Shown here: positions 4,960-32,000 of the stretch, piece after piece
Layout: every line of letters begins with the position of its first letter
How positions within the stretch are numbered: position 1 is the first letter of the stretch
Source: Nitrososphaerota archaeon
Lineage (GTDB): Archaea; Thermoproteota; Nitrososphaeria; Nitrososphaerales; Nitrosopumilaceae
Direction of reading: 5' to 3'
Assembly: GCA_022564515.1 (NCBI GenBank)
Contig: JADFLH010000003.1
Span: forward strand, 7,510 to 39,509
Length of the DNA stretch: 32,000 nt
Notes under the pieces: generated by a model
Seen by the model: only the letters and a program-made list of their open reading frames with translations
What the model was told of the DNA's origin: nothing
Database searches by the model: none
Position numbers and translations under genes: made by a program

Positions 4960-6633
4960 TCAGATCGGTTTTGTAATAGCTCCTTGCGCCGCTGATCCTA
5001 CAAGTGATGCATATTTTGCTAATACTCCTGATGTGTAATTCGGTTTTGGCTGTTTCCACCTATCTCGCCTTTGTCTCATCTCATCTTCTGACACATTGAG
5101 ATTAATGGAATTCTCTCCAATGTTGATAGATATTTCGTCACCATCCTTTACAAGAGCTATGTTTCCTCCTACAAATGCTTCGGGAGCAACATGGCCAATC
5201 ATAAGACCTTTAGTTGCACCTGAAAATCTTCCATCAGTTACCAAAGATACTTTATTACCAAGTCCCTGTCCCACTAACGCAGCTGTGACAGCTAACATTT
5301 CTCGCATTCCAGGACCGCCTTTTGGGCCTTCATATCGTATAACAACTACATCACCATCTTTAATTTCCTCATTTGCGACAGAATCAAATGCATCTTCCTC
5401 TCTATCAAATACTTTAGCATGTCCAACGAATCTTGTTTTCTCACCTCCTGCAATCTTTACTACTGCTCCATCTGGCGCAAGAGACCCCTTCAAAATCATT
5501 GCAGTTCCGGTACTGTGAATAGGGGCATCAATTGGTGTCACAACATTTTGATTTTCTACTGTTTGAATTGAAATTGAATCAAGATTTTCTTTGAGTGTTT
5601 TTCCAGTAACTGTCAGAACATTATCATGGAGCAAGTTTTTTTCAGTCAATTTCTTTAAGATTAAAGGAATGCCGCCAATTTTATCTAAATCAAGCATTAC
5701 GTGCCTTCCTCCAGGTTTCATATCTGCCAGATGGGGTGTCTTCTTCCTAATTCGTTCAAAATCATTATAGGACAATTTTATGTCTACTTCATTTGAGATT
5801 GCAAGCAAGTGTAAAATCGCATTTGTGGAGCCTCCAATTGCATTAAGAATTGTTATTGCATTTTCAAACGCATCAAATGTTAGAATGTCCCTTGGTCTGA
5901 TGTTTTGTTCAACTAAATTTGTTACAGCCCTTCCTGTATCATAACACATCTTTTCTCTTCTATCGTCTTCAGCTGGTGGACTTGCGCTTCCTGGCAATGC
6001 TAGTCCTAATGCTTCACTGATTGAAGCCATAGTGTTTGCAGTAAACATTCCTCCACAAGAGCCAGCGTTTGGACATGCATAATTTTCAATATTCTTCAAA
6101 GTTTCAAGTGTTAGTTGCCCAGCTTCATATGCTCCAACTGCCTCATAAACATCTTGAACAGTAATTTGTTTTCCTTCGTAAATTCCTGGCATTATTGTTC
6201 CGCCATAAACAAAAACTGATGGAAGATTCAATCTTGCAATGGCCATCATTGTGCCCGGCAAACTTTTGTCACAACCAGCTATGCAAATTAAACCGTCATA
6301 TTGATGAGCACGCATCATTAGTTCAATGGAATCCGCAATCACTTCTCTACTAATTAGAGATGATTTCATTCCCTCATGACCCATTGCAATTCCATCACTA
6401 ACTGCAATGGTACTAAATACGCGAGGTGTTGCCCCTCCATCACCCGCTCCTTCTTTTGCCTTTTGTGCTAAACGCCCTAGGTGGATGTTACAAGGAGTTG
6501 CCTCATTTCCGGTATGGCATACTCCAATGAATGGTTTACTTAGATCAGCATCAGTTAACCCCATAGCTTTGTACATTGCTCTGTGGGGAGCTCTTGCTAT
6601 TCCTTCAACTACATTTCTACTAGAAATTTCCAT
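4960..6633 (-). CDS. ilvD: dihydroxy-acid dehydratase
   Basis: 557 aa IlvD/Edd family protein ([30 protein letters not shown]). Confidence 0.95.
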
Positions 6634-6677
6634 AGAGAAACAATAATCAATTATGTTTGCTGTAATTTAGACTTTTT

Positions 6678-7274
6678 TTACTTTAAAATTATCTGGCTGT
6701 CTAATTCTTCTAACTGCTCATCTAATTGTTCTAGTGTCTCGTCACCATAGGAAATCAATATTTTATCACCTTCATTTCCTACATAGTTAAGAATGCTTGG
6801 AACTGGCTCATGATTAATGTAGAACTTTAGTGAATAATCTTCGTTGTTACAGAATTCTCTGCCATCAGGAAAAATAAAACATTCAGATGTTAAATCAATT
6901 CCAAGAGTCTCGAAAAGATATCCTGATGTTACACCTGAAGAGTGACGATGAACCGTATCTCCATCTCGTCCTTCAAAATGAATCCATCTATTTTTTATTT
7001 GGAAAGCTGGACCAGAAAAGTCAAACTTGTCTCCAAATATTCGAACTAGAACTGAGACATGTTCATGTTCATCACCAAATACTCCAGCACCAGGGGGTGT
7101 GCCCGGGGTTGACACTGGTTGACTCATGAATGTATAAACAGAGTAACCTACTATAACCGCAATCAGCCCAAATACACCTGCTGCAACTAAGGCGTTTTTT
7201 CTCTTTTCTCTGGATCTCTTTACAGCAAAATCCTCTCGTTTTTCTACCCTTTCTTTTCTTGCTTTCTTTCCCAT
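6678..7274 (-). CDS. membrane-anchored hypothetical protein
   Basis: 198 aa with a Lys/Arg-rich N-terminus, one TM helix (ALVAAGVFGLIAVIVGYSVYTF), a His-rich ectodomain (DEHEHVSV, HFEGRDGDTVHRH) and an acidic C-terminus. No named family recognised. Confidence 0.7.
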   Translation of the reverse strand: MGKKARKERVEKREDFAVKRSREKRKNALVAAGVFGLIAVIVGYSVYTFMSQPVSTPGTPPGAGVFGDEHEHVSVLVRIFGDKFDFSGPAFQIKNRWIHFEGRDGDTVHRHSSGVTSGYLFETLGIDLTSECFIFPDGREFCNNEDYSLKFYINHEPVPSILNYVGNEGDKILISYGDETLEQLDEQLEELDSQIILK

Positions 7275-28561: not shown

Positions 28562-28956
28562 ATTCCTGCTTAATTGGAGGAGCTAATATAGCTATTATTC
28601 TGATTTTTCTTTAGAGAATTTTTTTCAAATTTTTCTTTGCTTGTAGAGAATAATTTTAGCTCCATCATTTGGTAATCTGCTAAAAAAGAAACAATAACTT
28701 CAATTAACCATGAAAGAGTTATCACTTGCCTTTTTTAACAATTAGTATGTTTTATCAATTTGAGCTTTTTCTAGTGGGAGTTATTCTCTTGACAGCAATG
28801 ACTATGGGTGGTATTAGCCTATGGTGGAAGAGAAGAAATGCTCAAATCAAACAAATGGAACAATCTGAAAATGAGGAATCAAATCTATAATCTTTCTAGT
28901 GCTAATTTTTTCTTGTTACTAATAGATAAAATAGTGTATTTGTATTACAATAATAA

Positions 28957-29514
28957 TTGAAACTAATTATTGGAATTACAGGAAGTACAGGAGTAATTTA
29001 TGGCATTAGACTTCTTGAAATTCTAAAAAAATTGCATGTTGAAACTCATTTGATAATAACTGAATGGGCAACAAAATGCATTGGAATGGAAACAGAATTT
29101 ACTCCTGAGCATGTTAGATCATTAGCTGGTACAGTTTCAGATGAAAAAAATATGGCCGCTAGCATTTCAAGCGGAACCCATAAAGTTAATGGAATGATCA
29201 TTGCACCATGCAGTATGAAAACATTATCCTCTATTGCAAATGGTTACGATGAAACTCTAATAGCTAGAGCAGCTGCTGTAACTATTAAGGAAGGGAGGAA
29301 ATTGATATTAATGGTTCGAGAAACTCCTCTTAGTGCAATAAATATTGAAAACATGTTGAAATTAGCAAGACTCGGCGTGGTAATTTTGCCACCCGTTACG
29401 GAATTTTATACTCGCCCAAAAACCATAGATGATATTGTAAACCATGGTGTGGGAAAATGCCTTGATCAGTTTGATCTAGAACATGATTTATACCCTCGAT
29501 GGGGCACATTTTGA
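28957..29514 (+). CDS. ubiX: flavin prenyltransferase UbiX
   Basis: 185 aa with a TTG start. Motifs: LIIGITGSTGVIYG, APCSMKTLSSIANG, LILMVRETPLS. Confidence 0.9.
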   Translation: MKLIIGITGSTGVIYGIRLLEILKKLHVETHLIITEWATKCIGMETEFTPEHVRSLAGTVSDEKNMAASISSGTHKVNGMIIAPCSMKTLSSIANGYDETLIARAAAVTIKEGRKLILMVRETPLSAINIENMLKLARLGVVILPPVTEFYTRPKTIDDIVNHGVGKCLDQFDLEHDLYPRWGTF

Positions 29515-29520
29515 AAAAAA

Positions 29521-29958
29521 TTGCCCAAAATAAATTTTGAAAAAATAGTCAAAGCAAATAGGAACAAAGTTTTTGATATTGCAACAAATTTTAAAGAATT
29601 TCAAAAAATTCTACCCGAATATTTTCCTTCAATTAGAGTAATATCAATTAGAGATAATGTAGCAGTGGTTGAAGAACACGTCAGAATATCTGGAAAGGAA
29701 TTAGTAATGATGACAAAACATGTGATCCAATATCCAGAATTACATGAGATCTTTGTAATCGGCGGGGATATGAAGGGAAGTCATATTGTGGAAAAATATG
29801 ACACCATAGAGCAGGGAACTAAGATTACCTTTGATGCAGATATAAAACTGAATGGTATACAAAGAATGACAGATTTTTTTATGAAGGGAAAGATATCAAG
29901 AGGTTTTGCAAATATAATTGATGAATTTGCAAAATTTGCAGAAACTCAATCGCCTTGA
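29521..29958 (+). CDS. SRPBCC (START/polyketide-cyclase-like) family protein
   Basis: 145 aa with a TTG start and a general SRPBCC pattern (VFDIATNFKEFQKILPEYF...). The family call is moderate. Confidence 0.55.
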   Translation: MPKINFEKIVKANRNKVFDIATNFKEFQKILPEYFPSIRVISIRDNVAVVEEHVRISGKELVMMTKHVIQYPELHEIFVIGGDMKGSHIVEKYDTIEQGTKITFDADIKLNGIQRMTDFFMKGKISRGFANIIDEFAKFAETQSP

Positions 29959-30152
29959 GATTTTTTCTTTCCTTTAAATTCTTCTAGTTCTTTGTCACCT
30001 TCAATTCTACCTTTTTCGTATTCTCCCTTGGCCTTTCCAAAGGTTTTTGCAAGTTCAGGAATTTTTTTTGCACCAAAGAGTAGAACCGCAACAATAACAA
30101 TTATCCAGATCCATTCTGGGCCTGCAACAAAGTTTGTGATCTGCTCTAGCAT
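29946..30152 (-). CDS. tatA: twin-arginine translocase subunit TatA/E
   Basis: 68 aa with one TM helix followed by LLFGAKKIPELAKTFGKAKGEYEKG. Confidence 0.88.
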   Translation of the reverse strand: MLEQITNFVAGPEWIWIIVIVAVLLFGAKKIPELAKTFGKAKGEYEKGRIEGDKELEEFKGKKKSQGD

Positions 30153-30234
30153 TAAATCTTAATCCTTTAAATTGAGATTTAAATGTTCCATAATTTACTG
30201 TGAGTATTAAATGTAATTTTGTGTATATGACCGA

Positions 30235-30618
30235 TTATTCTTCTACTGTTTCTATTTCCCATCCATCGTTTATCCAGATTCCAATCACTTCAACTGACAT
30301 GTTCCAGGATTTAATAACGCTAATTGATTTTCTTATTTGATTTTGATGTTCTTCTTTTGAGATGGGATTTGCAGCACAATCATGATGTCCAGCAATAACC
30401 ACCAAGTTTGAACCATGTGCTTTGATGGAGATATTTATTTTGGATTTTAATTGCTCAATTTTTTCAACTTTTTCTTCAGACACTACTTTATCTGGACCTG
30501 GTTCTGTAATTGTATCAACATAGTCTATAGAATAATTTTCCTTAATCCAGTTAAAAGCAGGTAGCTGAGTCCTACCATCTATGCAATTTATTACAGTTCC
30601 AAACTTTCCTTCTACCAA
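30235..30618 (-). CDS. small protein with beta-carbonic-anhydrase-type metal-site motifs (function unproven)
   Basis: 127 aa with CIDGR (CxDxR) at residues 12-16 and GHHDC (HxxC) at residues 87-91. Confidence 0.6.
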   Translation of the reverse strand: MVEGKFGTVINCIDGRTQLPAFNWIKENYSIDYVDTITEPGPDKVVSEEKVEKIEQLKSKINISIKAHGSNLVVIAGHHDCAANPISKEEHQNQIRKSISVIKSWNMSVEVIGIWINDGWEIETVEE

Positions 30619-30705
30619 TGTTATATCGTAATTTTTAGCTGATGTTTGGTATTAAATCTCTTTCTTAAATTGCGTTTTTTGAGCTGTTGAGTATTTTACA
30701 AGTTT

Positions 30706-30721
30706 CAGTTCGTATCAAATA
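30706..30721 (+). repeat. dispersed motif M1, copy C
   Basis: CAGTTCGTATCAAATA, 15/16 identical to copy A. A weak inverted M2-like ACCTGAAAAACTC lies about 30 nt further on. Confidence 0.85.
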
Positions 30722-30855
30722 GTAATTCCCCAATTTTACATACTACAATTCATACCTGAAAAACTCGATAATTATTCAGCATGTTTTGGAAAAGAAAACA
30801 TACTGTTGAGGAACTAAATTGAATAAATCAAGAAAGATGGGCAAAAAGTGATCCT

Positions 30856-31059
30856 GTGGAAGAGGACATTATTGGTTTCAAAATATTTCTAAAAAGAGCA
30901 GGTGTAGATGATTCTATTATTGAAGATATTCTCAGTCGCCATCATGATGGAAAAAACATCGATGAAAAGGGAAACGAGTATTGGGTTTGTGGATGTTCTA
31001 GTTTTAAATTTTCAACAAAAGAAGAATACATTATGCATCATTATCGTGTACATAGTTAA
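30856..31059 (+). CDS. small C2H2-like zinc-finger protein
   Basis: 67 aa with a GTG start. WVCGCSSFKFSTKEEYIMHHYRVHS has Cys-Cys...His-His spacing. Confidence 0.4.
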   Translation: MEEDIIGFKIFLKRAGVDDSIIEDILSRHHDGKNIDEKGNEYWVCGCSSFKFSTKEEYIMHHYRVHS

Positions 31060-31090
31060 ATCAGAAAACTTTTCAAAAATCAGATCTTAA

Positions 31091-31124
31091 CAGTTCATAT
31101 CAAATGTTTAATCCTGAAAATTCT
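31091..31124. repeat. M1 copy B immediately followed by an inverted M2
   Basis: CAGTTCATATCAAATG (31091-106), then T, then TTAATCCTGAAAATTCT (31108-124). Confidence 0.9.
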
Positions 31125-31446
31125 TAATTCTTAGTATCATCATTATTCTACGTTGGGTATCGGGGTTCAAAAAATCATAATTCCCAAAAACACTTAAACT
31201 GGCATTAACTTGAAATGATTCGATTGTAACTGTATTTTGCAGTAAATTAACAATTAATTGCTCAGTGCCTGAACCACTAGTTCTACGCCAGCTAATTTTA
31301 GCAGTGGCAAGGTAGAGGCCTTTTGATGCTCCTGCTGTCAGTGTGGCAATCGTTCCTGTAGTGGTGACTGATCCGTCATTATCTTTCAAGTTTCCATTAA
31401 ATTCTTGGTGCTCATGAAATAATAATTCTAGATGAGAATTGAACAA
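31108..31446 (-). CDS. hypothetical ORF or gene fragment inside the TIR-bounded unit
   Basis: 112 aa and Ser/Thr/Gly-rich. The only start is TTG, and a stop lies two codons upstream. Its last codons (KNFQD*) are encoded by the inverted M2 copy. Confidence 0.3.
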   Translation of the reverse strand: MFNSHLELLFHEHQEFNGNLKDNDGSVTTTGTIATLTAGASKGLYLATAKISWRRTSGSGTEQLIVNLLQNTVTIESFQVNASLSVFGNYDFLNPDTQRRIMMILRIKNFQD

Positions 31447-31483
31447 TGGTTAACTTTCTACTCCACAAAATGCTTTTTAGTTT

Positions 31484-31500
31484 AGAATTTTCAGGATTAA
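31484..31500 (+). repeat. M2 copy forming a perfect 17-bp terminal inverted repeat with 31108..31124
   Basis: AGAATTTTCAGGATTAA. Confidence 0.9.
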
Positions 31501-31782
31501 AAAAGGGTTTAGTAACTAAGGGTTTTGTTTAGCTACATACTCATCAAGGAATTTTTGAGCAGAATCAGGATTCTCATATGCTAAATCGAGACATATCTGA
31601 AAAACTGGATCAAGATCCCATTTTTTTATCTTTCCACATTCTAAAACCATCTCCTCATATCCATATCCCCATTCATTAAATTGTGGATTTTCAGCATAAA
31701 ACTAAGAAAAGAACTTGAAAATTAGCAGTTTGTTCAGATTAAACATACACCTAAACATTAACCATCTTACCTATCCTATTAT

Positions 31783-31843
31783 GGAATAAAGCAAACTCAT
31801 ACTGTAACAGCTTCCGGTGGAATTTTTACCACCGCTTTATTCC
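31783..31843. other. two-tier stem structure (possible small RNA or terminator)
   Basis: GGAATAAAG (31783-91) pairs with CTTTATTCC (31835-43). An inner stem pairs GGTGG (31816-20) with CCACC (31829-33) across an 8-nt loop. A 22-23-nt bulge sits on the 5' side. Confidence 0.3.
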
Positions 31844-32000
31844 AACTCTCCTCATTTTACGATTATTCATTAAAAATGGATTAATATGAACATATTTCAA
31901 GGAGAGAGATTTATTACGATACAAAAGTAAAGAATACCTTAAACATGATGAATACCTATACAAAGTACGGTTAGCTACCGTACATTTCCCAGAGGGGAGG

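What the first reader, a model, noticed from the sequence alone, without database searches (positions are those of the whole stretch)
31091..31500. 393-bp MITE-like unit bounded by perfect 17-bp inverted repeats, abutting an M1 copy
TTAATCCTGAAAATTCT (31108-24) and AGAATTTTCAGGATTAA (31484-500) are perfect reverse complements enclosing 359 bp. The left repeat is separated from an M1 copy by a single T. The enclosed 112-aa frame has only a TTG start and a stop two codons upstream. Its last five codons and its stop lie within the repeat, so it may be a captured or decayed fragment. The outermost TTAA on each side could be either part of the repeat or a TTAA target duplication; the palindrome makes the two indistinguishable.
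Basis: seen in the sequence. Interest (0 to 1): 0.62.

Follow-up and report, generated by a model that had tools for sequence, protein, structure and literature searches.

The report
Inverted gene remnant between promoter repeats
Two inverted copies of a 28-base promoter-like repeat in a deep-sea ammonia-oxidising archaeon bracket a truncated virus-type gene, and one natural lineage carries the bracketed 0.4 kb flipped, so this is a repeat-mediated inversion and not a MITE.

Summary
TTAATCCTGAAAATTCT (31108-24) and its reverse complement (31484-500) are exact, and the pairing extends to 21 nt with one mismatch.

The MITE reading fails.
- The interior is single-copy in this genome and was not found in 60 related genomes.
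- The 17-mer is the 5' half of a 28-nt module, M2 (ttAAtcCTGAAAATTCTTAATTCtTAgt). M2 has 21-52 copies in three of the four genomes of this genus counted, and most copies stand alone.
- The outer TTAA belongs to the M2 consensus, so it is not a target duplication.

In 16 of 62 M2 copies an ATG lies exactly 23 nt after TTCTTAAT. That is where a BRE/TATA box sits for leaderless archaeal mRNAs, so M2 is most likely a promoter module.

The enclosed ORF is real coding sequence with 66 remote homologues, some on MCM-encoding viral contigs. It lacks the last ~25 residues of its family. It lies in a decaying 3.3-kb insertion between tatA and tatC.

New result: five metagenome contigs from five samples carry 31107-31501 inverted, with breakpoints inside the repeat. 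All five share one segment haplotype, which points to a single old inversion rather than fast switching.

A conserved gene with its M2 also occurs at 99.5% identity in several contexts that diverge exactly at M2.

Earlier agents of this scan described the partner repeat M1 in this genome. M2 and the inversion are new.

The parts
31087..31110 (+). M1 copy (core CAGTTCATATCAAATG at 31091-31106) with its flanking TTAA on each side. M1 is the genus-wide intergenic quasi-palindrome found at cassette joints.
   Evidence: about 150 copies, of which 114 of 117 near-exact copies are intergenic; similarity between species starts and stops at M1.
31108..31135 (+). Complete M2 module TTAATCCTGAAAATTCTTAATTCTTAGT (upstream element, A-rich BRE-like run, TATA-like TTCTTAAT). 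It points rightwards, antisense into the 3' end of ORF112, with no ORF of its own downstream.
   Evidence: Searches give the consensus from 109 copies. One search gives the ATG at +23 in other copies. One search shows no + strand ORF of 30 aa or more in 31108-31500.
31107..31127 (.). Left arm of the inverted repeat. It is 21 nt with one mismatch, and 31108-31124 is the perfect 17-mer. The inversion crossover lies within 31107-31124.
   Evidence: (I2) for the repeat. for the junction sequences of L016 and L017.
31108..31446 (-). ORF112, a single-copy C-terminally truncated member of an uncharacterised ~135-160-aa protein family that also occurs on MCM-encoding viral contigs. A 1-nt indel at 31409 gives an alternative 102-aa ATG form in other haplotypes.
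31481..31501 (.). Right arm of the inverted repeat.
31476..31500 (-). M2 half-site. The 5' half TTAATCCTGAAAATTCT is canonical. The 3' half has diverged to AAACTAAA, which gives a TATA-like TTCTAAAC. It lies upstream of and in sense with ORF112. The TTG start is about 10 nt beyond the predicted transcription start.
   Evidence: The transcription start position is inferred from the +23 rule.
31501..31514 (-). CTAAACCCTTTTTT, an oligo-T run directly after the 44-aa ORF (31516-31650, -). It resembles an archaeal terminator and forms the right flank of the unit.
   Evidence: It is not a repeated module in this genome.
30153..32000 (.). Part of a 3.3-kb species-specific insertion (window 30153 to about 33463, running past the window end) between tatA and tatC. 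All six congeners have tatC and tatA adjacent.
30856..31059 (+). o67, a remnant of a 92-aa gene for a small Cys/His-rich protein that forms the left flank. A nonsense codon at 30820 in this genome shortens it, and another lineage carries a different nonsense allele.

Best explanation
**Setting.** The 393-bp unit is a decaying accessory-gene remnant bracketed by two inverted copies of a dispersed promoter module. It is not a transposable element. The host is an uncultured Nitrosopumilaceae archaeon whose relatives are labelled NP-theta and deep-sea sediment MAGs.

**M2 (shown to exist, function inferred).** M2 is a 28-nt module restricted almost entirely to this genus. Its TTCTTAAT box sits 23 nt before the start codon of many unrelated small genes. 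That is the BRE/TATA position for leaderless mRNAs, so M2 is inferred to be a portable promoter.

**The two copies here.** The right copy is a half-site with a degenerate TATA part, and it faces ORF112 in sense. The left copy is complete, abuts the cassette-joint repeat M1, and points antisense into the ORF's truncated 3' end. It is an orphan promoter, left where a recombination event at M2 cut off the last ~25 codons of a virus-family gene.

**The inversion.** Because the two copies are inverted and share 17-18 identical bases, recombination between them has flipped the intervening 359 bp at least once in nature. The flipped allele is inherited in one lineage. The flip leaves each promoter copy facing into the segment, so it changes only the orientation of the remnant relative to its neighbours. 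It is probably neutral.

**What is shown:**
- the repeat family;
- the single-copy interior;
- the insertion island;
- the truncation of ORF112;
- the inverted allele with breakpoints inside the repeat;
- the linkage of that allele to one haplotype.

**What is inferred:**
- the promoter function of M2;
- the orphan, antisense status of the left copy;
- a single inversion event;
- the enzyme, which is unknown. It could be short-homology recombination or a recombinase that uses M2.
For: **Repeat family.**
- There are 11 exact 17-mers in the genome.
- The M2 18-mer at one mismatch or fewer counts 21, 23 and 52 copies in G000, G002 and G004, none in G006, 1-4 in five other genera, and 0-1 for the reversed control.
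- There are no exact matches in IMG/VR.
- Conservation is confined to 28 nt across 109 copies.

**Promoter reading.**
- An ATG lies exactly 23 nt after TTCTTAAT in 8 of 28 copies in G000 and 8 of 34 in other genomes, with binomial p of about 5e-7 and 9e-7.
- One more copy has a TTG at +23, opening a 116-aa ORF.
- Genome-wide there is an A/T box at -30 to -25 from start codons.
- PMC6028130 places the archaeal promoter box about 26 nt before leaderless starts and assigns 11 of 11 Thaumarchaeota to that class.

**Interior.**
- It is single-copy.
- The family profile hit no other genome among 61 of the family, and ORF112 covers profile positions 3-114 of 138.
- There are 66 remote homologues, the best at E = 1e-16. 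The alignment shows the missing C-terminal block VEGxxxCFEEDTGxxP.
- A relative lies on a 35-kb viral contig that encodes MCM and Dam.

**Island.**
- tatC and tatA are adjacent in six congeners.
- Neighbouring genes carry nonsense and frameshift alleles.

**Inversion.**
- L016 carries both inverted junctions. L065, L067 and L040 carry the left-flank junction. L017 carries the right-flank junction.
- These come from five samples and from assemblies named in SPAdes style (NODE), MEGAHIT style (k141) and as a JGI record. The repeat is far shorter than the 141-base words named in the two k141 contigs.
- All five carry segment haplotype E. None of 23 non-E contigs shows an inverted junction (Fisher p = 5e-5).
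Against: - No RNA data were available.
- About 30% of M2 copies face the 3' end of a convergent gene. Similar convergent M2 pairs bracket single ORFs in two congeners. That is more than a 'fossil' reading would predict, and it hints at a function for inward-facing copies.
- The 28-nt conservation is longer than a BRE/TATA box needs.
- Haplotype E also appears with normal junctions in L039, L017 and L040. Those may be strain chimeras, but they could also mean real switching.
- Synteny breaks at M2 elsewhere fit a dedicated recombination system as well as they fit passive homology.
Confidence: 0.6

Rival explanations
1. Programmed invertible element. A site-specific recombinase recognises M2 and flips the segment reversibly. 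Flipping changes which promoter copy lies next to M1, and so changes the balance of sense and antisense transcripts of ORF112 or its neighbours.
For: - Both orientations exist in nature, with breakpoints inside the repeat.
- Contigs L017 and L040 contain one normal and one inverted junction from the same sample.
- The genome has six tyrosine-recombinase genes.
- Contexts of another gene diverge exactly at M2.
- Archaeal invertons are reported but little studied (bioRxiv 10.1101/2023.03.11.532203).
Against: - Orientation is tightly linked to one haplotype, 5 of 6 against 0 of 23. Fast switching would erase such linkage.
- The two left-flank copies in L040 differ at 31032, so that contig mixes two strains.
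- No recombinase gene lies on this 63-kb contig, and no serine invertase was found in the genome.
- The cargo is a truncated gene, and the flip leaves both promoters facing inwards.
Confidence: 0.15
2. Non-autonomous mobile cassette, either MITE-like or like a 'mobile insertion cassette'. M2 (with M1) would act as the terminal inverted repeats, moved in trans by a transposase or integrase, and ORF112 would be the passenger.
For: - Inverted M2 ends bracket single ORFs three times in three species. One case, G002:C66, has 47-nt M1.M2 inverted repeats.
- A 407-413-bp unit of M2 plus gene is 99.5% identical in at least three upstream and four downstream contexts.
- M1-bounded cassettes are 92-93% identical between species whose core genes are 75-80% identical.
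Against: - The interior here is single-copy, and no strain lacks the unit.
- The TTAA is part of the motif, not a duplication.
- Most M2 copies are solitary and direct.
- The mobile-looking units elsewhere are bounded by direct M2 copies, not inverted ones.
- No transposase gene lies nearby.
Confidence: 0.12
3. An ordinary regulated gene. The two 17-mers would be operator sites for one transcription factor placed at both ends of a functional small gene, and the inversion would be an irrelevant accident.
For: - M2 is conserved beyond the BRE/TATA core. It occurs before many unrelated accessory genes, as a regulon operator would.
Against: - ORF112 lacks the conserved C-terminal block of its family and has a 5' frameshift polymorphism.
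- Neighbouring genes are pseudogenising.
- The unit was not found in any congener searched.
Confidence: 0.08
4. Assembly artefact. The inverted contigs would be mis-assemblies at an inverted repeat.
For: - L017 and L040 are visibly chimeric at the repeat.
Against: - The repeat is 17-21 nt, well below the 141-base words named in the two k141 contigs.
- L016, L065 and L067 join 0.8-2.6 kb of unique left flank to the inverted interior.
- There are five samples and several assemblers, and the inverted contigs carry their own SNPs.
Confidence: 0.03

Closest known systems
MITEs (miniature inverted-repeat transposable elements, including the archaeal SM-type MITEs of Sulfolobus; from my own knowledge)
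   Same: It is a short unit of about 0.4 kb bounded by perfect inverted repeats, with TTAA at the outer edges.
   Different: The interior is single-copy and coding. No target duplication can be told apart from the motif. No empty site was found. The 'ends' are copies of a module that mostly occurs alone and in front of genes.
Invertons, the invertible DNA segments of bacteria such as fimS/FimBE and hin/hix, and the putative archaeal invertons reported in bioRxiv 10.1101/2023.03.11.532203
   Same: Inverted repeats of 15-30 bp flank a few hundred bp. Both orientations are found in natural populations. The repeats contain promoter-like sequence.
   Different: There is no adjacent recombinase gene. 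Orientation is linked to one haplotype. The flip does not move a promoter relative to the enclosed gene. The cargo is a truncated gene.
Mobile or propagated promoters (homologous promoter sequences upstream of non-homologous genes; Matus-Garcia, Nijveen and van Passel, Nucleic Acids Res 2012, recalled from memory and not checked here)
   Same: A nearly identical ~28-nt promoter-like sequence stands before many unrelated genes in one genome and in close relatives.
   Different: This case is archaeal (BRE/TATA, leaderless) and tied to a second repeat, M1. Here the module is also shown at rearrangement breakpoints.
Integron gene cassettes with attC sites, and REP/BIME elements. Earlier agents of this scan named both as the closest matches for M1 in this genome.
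   Same: Single-gene units are bounded by a short repeat. The same unit occurs in different contexts. Arrays of co-oriented small genes are present.
   Different: M2 has no hairpin potential (0 kcal/mol), unlike attC or REP. M2 lies at the 5' end of its gene and looks like its promoter, whereas integron cassettes are mostly promoterless. No integrase-plus-attI platform or RAYT gene has been identified.

Membership tests
MITE | Terminal inverted repeats | tested here: met
   The arms are 17 nt perfect and 21 nt with one mismatch.
MITE | Many copies with homologous interior in the genome | tested here: not met
   The interior is single-copy by protein search and by DNA search. It was not found in 60 related genomes.
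MITE | Target-site duplication flanking the element | tested here: not met
   The TTAA is part of the M2 consensus (ttAAtcCTG...) in solitary copies. No further duplication is seen outside it.
MITE | Presence/absence polymorphism (empty site) | tested here: not met
   About 30 strain-level contigs all carry the unit. The congeners lack the whole 3.3-kb block, not the unit alone. Raw reads could not be examined.
Inverton (programmed invertible element) | Inverted repeats flanking the segment, and both orientations present in nature | tested here: met
   Five contigs from five samples carry inverted junctions, with breakpoints within 31107-31124.
Inverton (programmed invertible element) | Both orientations within one clone or haplotype (reversible switching) | tested here: inconclusive
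   Haplotype E occurs with both junction types, but the contigs concerned look like strain chimeras.
Inverton (programmed invertible element) | Dedicated recombinase, usually adjacent | tested here: not met
   None of the six tyrosine-recombinase genes lies on contig C23. No serine recombinase was found.
Inverton (programmed invertible element) | Orientation changes expression of a gene | not testable with these tools
   No RNA data were available. From the sequence, both promoter copies face inwards in either state.
Archaeal BRE/TATA promoter of leaderless genes (for M2) | An A/T-rich box about 24-31 nt upstream of the start codon, preceded by a purine-rich BRE | tested here: met
   An ATG lies at +23 after TTCTTAAT in 16 of 62 copies, p about 1e-6 in each set. 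GAAAA lies directly upstream. The genome-wide box is at -30 to -25. The literature position is about 26 nt.
Archaeal BRE/TATA promoter of leaderless genes (for M2) | Transcription initiates about 24 nt downstream of the box | not testable with these tools
Integron-type cassette site (attC-like) | An imperfect palindrome that folds as a single-stranded hairpin | tested here: not met
   M2 folds at 0 kcal/mol, no better than shuffles. M1 forms only a weak hairpin of -2.3 kcal/mol.
Integron-type cassette site (attC-like) | The repeat marks the exact boundaries of units found in different contexts | tested here: met
   The P0074 gene plus its M2 is 99.5% identical over 407-413 bp, bounded by CCTG of M2 on both sides, in at least three upstream and four downstream contexts.

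The most novel reading that the evidence does not exclude
M2 is both the leaderless promoter and the recombination site of an archaeal gene-cassette system, with the crossover near its CCTG. Units of M2 plus one gene would be excised, reinserted and inverted at M2 (with M1 as a second joint) by a still unidentified recombinase. The inversion at 31107-31501 and the half-M2 on the right arm would then be products of that system.
Probability: 0.22. Interest if true: 0.8.

Novelty: new variant of a known kind. Interest (0 to 1): 0.5.

Why it matters
- It shows that an inverted-repeat pair read from raw sequence as a MITE is in fact two copies of a genus-specific promoter module.
- It documents a natural DNA inversion in Nitrosopumilaceae, a group in which inversions are hardly studied.
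- It gives a simple rule for annotating small accessory genes in these genomes: the start codon lies 23 nt after TTCTTAAT.
- It identifies a compact candidate promoter for ammonia-oxidising archaea.
- M2 sits at rearrangement joints next to the M1 repeat that this scan reported earlier. This adds a second, promoter-bearing component to what may be a cassette-shuffling system in deep-sea ammonia oxidisers.

Tried and rejected
**Searches that found nothing**
- Pfam and PHROGs gave no match for ORF112, its homologues or its neighbours.
- A single-sequence AlphaFold2 model of ORF112 was uninformative, with mean pLDDT 42.6.
- Rfam showed nothing in 30600-32000.
- A literature search for the M1 sequence found nothing.
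- M2 is not viral, with 0 exact matches in IMG/VR. The 11 single M1 hits there are no more than I estimate a 16-mer would give by chance in a collection of that size; this was not computed.
- A scan of JGI metagenome contigs for the ORF-end-plus-repeat junction returned only three contigs that were already known and normal.
- A pattern search of species-representative genomes found no relative of the ORF112 family.

**Ideas considered and dropped**
- I suspected that Logan contigs ending at 31111 or 31127 marked inversion forks. The ends are explained instead by 30-33-nt identities with other M1.M2 copies (C7, C9, C29), so I do not use them as evidence.
- L041 looked inverted from its gene list but is normal.
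- CTAAACCCTTTTT, a candidate third module, is not repeated in this genome.
- G+C content does not set the unit apart.
- dN/dS is not informative, with only two synonymous and two non-synonymous common SNPs.

**Tests that could not be run**
No read-level orientation ratio and no RNA evidence could be obtained.

Full report
**1. Observation**

- TTAATCCTGAAAATTCT lies at 31108-31124, and its exact reverse complement at 31484-31500.
- The pairing runs to 21 nt (31107-27 / 31481-501) with one mismatch at 31125.
- The M1 copy CAGTTCATATCAAATG (31091-31106) is one T away from the repeat.
- The enclosed minus-strand frame 31446..31108 is 112 aa with a TTG start, and an in-frame TAA sits two codons upstream.

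The pair is far beyond chance, but it is not private. A third exact copy lies at 20104-20 in the window. There are 11 exact copies in the 1.5-Mb assembly, and 24 at two mismatches or fewer.

**2. What the repeat is**

I aligned 109 distinct copies from this genome and its relatives. They define a 28-nt module, ttAAtcCTGAAAATTCTTAATTCtTAgt, which I call M2. There is no conservation outside it.

Counts of the M2 18-mer at one mismatch or fewer:

| Genome | Copies |
|---|---|
| This genome (G000) | 21 |
| Congener G002 | 23 |
| Congener G004 | 52 |
| Congener G006 | 0 |
| Five other genera of the family | 1-4 each |
| Reversed-pattern control | 0-1 |

M2 has no exact match in 2.9 million viral contigs. 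Record titles of relatives name them Nitrosopumilaceae, including NP-theta and deep-sea sediment MAGs.

The outer TTAA is part of the consensus in solitary copies, so it cannot be read as a target duplication.

M2 is very often joined at that TTAA to M1, in either M1 orientation. Earlier agents of this scan described M1 on other windows of this genome as a cassette-boundary repeat. I checked that in part.
- M1 has about 150 copies, and 114 of 117 near-exact copies are intergenic.
- Similarity between species for two small-gene units starts and stops exactly at M1. Those units are 86-93% identical, against 75-80% for the core genes of this window.

**3. M2 looks like a promoter**

- In 8 of 28 copies in this genome and 8 of 34 copies in other genomes, an ATG lies exactly 23 nt after TTCTTAAT. 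The mean for any other offset is about 0.75 per offset. The binomial p values are about 5e-7 and 9e-7.
- The genes concerned are unrelated to one another.
- A further copy has a TTG at +23 that opens a 116-aa frame in some strains. That frame is frameshifted in this genome.
- Genome-wide, start codons are preceded by an A/T box at -30 to -25 and an A-rich stretch at -36 to -32. TTCTTAAT and GAAAA of M2 fall at exactly those positions.
- The GeneMarkS-2 paper places the archaeal promoter box about 26 nt before leaderless starts and assigns 11 of 11 Thaumarchaeota to that class (PMC6028130).

Promoter function is therefore an inference from position. M2 has no hairpin potential as single-stranded DNA.

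**4. The interior**

ORF112 is single-copy in the genome. The word-indexed search found only variants more than 95% identical.

An exhaustive HMMER search found 66 remote homologues, the best at E = 1e-16 and 38-42% identity.
- Most are 130-160 aa, or about 310 aa with two copies of the domain.
- They have no Pfam or PHROG family.

The alignment covers ORF112 from residue ~7 to its end. It shows that ORF112 lacks the family's conserved C-terminal block (VEGxxxCFEEDTGxxP). A profile search places it at positions 3-114 of 138. That search found the family in none of 60 other genomes of the taxonomic family.

Two viral contigs carry relatives. One is a 35-kb contig that encodes an MCM helicase and a Dam methylase.

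The ORF's last codons and its stop are supplied by the reverse complement of M2, which has stops in all three frames. A 1-nt indel at 31409 splits the population into a 112-aa TTG form and a 102-aa ATG form.

So the cargo is a truncated, horizontally acquired gene.

**5. Setting**

In all six congeners tatC and tatA are adjacent. This species has a 3.3-kb insertion between them, from window 30153 to about 33463. The insertion holds:
- a Pro_CA_2 gene that lies elsewhere in congeners;
- o67/o92;
- the unit studied here;
- a 44-aa ORF;
- a 270-nt repeat;
- two further genes fronted by M2.

o92 carries different nonsense alleles in different lineages, and o116 is frameshifted. The island is decaying.

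**6. The inversion**

Contig L016 matches the window left flank directly. It then matches 31501-31107 in reverse, and then matches the right flank directly. Its junction sequences place the crossover inside the shared 18 nt.

| Contig | Evidence |
|---|---|
| L016 | Both inverted junctions |
| L065, L067 | About 0.8 kb of left flank joined to the inverted interior |
| L040 | The same left-flank junction on one side, a normal junction on the other |
| L017 | The inverted right-flank junction at its end |

These are five samples, and the contig names point to several assemblers. The repeat is well below the 141-base words named in the two k141 contigs, so mis-assembly is unlikely.

All five carry one segment haplotype, E. 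None of 23 contigs with other haplotypes shows an inverted junction (Fisher p = 5e-5). The two left-flank copies inside L040 differ at 31032, so that contig mixes two strains.

The simplest reading is one old inversion inherited by one lineage. Active switching in that lineage is not excluded.

No recombinase gene lies on this 63-kb contig. The genome has six tyrosine-recombinase genes elsewhere and no serine recombinase.

**7. M2 at other rearrangement joints**

Convergent M2 pairs bracket single ORFs in G004:C72 and in G002:C66. The G002:C66 case has 47-nt M1.M2 inverted repeats.

The G004 gene is a conserved Nitrosopumilaceae protein. The identical protein with its M2 is found in at least three upstream and four downstream contexts. 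The shared 407-413 bp is 99.5% identical. It begins at the CCTG of its own M2 and ends at the CATCCTG of the next one. The flank that holds it in one genome holds other sequence in four others.

M2 is therefore a recurrent breakpoint. This could be because 28-nt dispersed repeats are good substrates for recombination, or because a recombinase uses them. The right arm of the present unit is itself a half-M2, which fits a past exchange inside the module.

**8. Verdict**

This is not a MITE. It is a truncated accessory gene between two inverted copies of a promoter-like, recombination-prone module, and the pair has mediated a natural inversion.

| Reading | Confidence |
|---|---|
| This explanation | 0.6 |
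| Programmed switch | 0.15 |
| Mobile cassette | 0.12 |
| Ordinary regulated gene | 0.08 |
| Assembly artefact | 0.03 |

The scan had already found M1 on other DNA of this genome. M2, its promoter position and the inversion are new here.

Noticed in passing
window 31718-31987: A ~270-nt non-coding stretch has one other copy in the genome (G000:C17:23613-23889, 81% identity). It has no Rfam match. It could be an element end or an RNA.
   Followed up: partly
window 30770-31059 (o67/o92): The left-flank gene encodes a 92-aa protein whose tail (WVCGC...HHYRVH) looks by eye like a C2H2 zinc finger; no family search matched it. This genome has a TGA at 30820 where other strains have CGA. The L016 lineage has a different nonsense codon near 30862.
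   Followed up: partly
window 30153 to about 33463 (runs past the window end): A 3.3-kb insertion splits the tatC-tatA pair, which is adjacent in six congeners. Its Pro_CA_2 gene (30235-30618) lies on other contigs in the congeners. No M1 or M2 sits at the outer junctions of the insertion.
   Followed up: yes
L221-L230, G004:C72:23930-24335: A conserved 112-aa Nitrosopumilaceae protein (P0074) with its M2 promoter occurs at 99.5% DNA identity in several genomic contexts. One context lies next to an IS240-type DDE transposase (L223).
   Followed up: partly
L132 (G001:C272) 1501-2040; L126 (G002:C66) 2449-2960: A 142-aa gene unit is flanked by direct M1 copies 514 bp apart. It is 92-93% identical among three species whose core genes are 75-80% identical, which suggests recent exchange between species.
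   Followed up: partly
G000:C23:40515-40902 (window about 33006-33393); L014 1085-1481: An M2 copy is followed at +23 by a TTG that opens a 116-aa frame in some strains. A 1-nt deletion in this genome leaves only a 68-aa ORF.
   Followed up: yes
L118 (G004:C48) 6599-6680: Two M2 copies face each other only about 64 nt apart, with no ORF between them. The same 7.8-kb contig carries at least 8 co-oriented M2 copies.
   Followed up: no
L190, L192 (NZWI01000024.1, NZWI01000036.1): Two contigs of a MAG labelled Candidatus Neomarinimicrobiota bacterium encode a UbiX 76% identical to the thaumarchaeal one. The MAG probably contains mis-binned archaeal contigs.
   Followed up: no
L016 397-2000 against window 28900-30620: The inverted-allele contig is about 4% diverged from the window across ubiX to Pro_CA_2 but only about 1% diverged from 30640 onward. 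This suggests recent exchange of the cassette region between diverged strains.
   Followed up: partly
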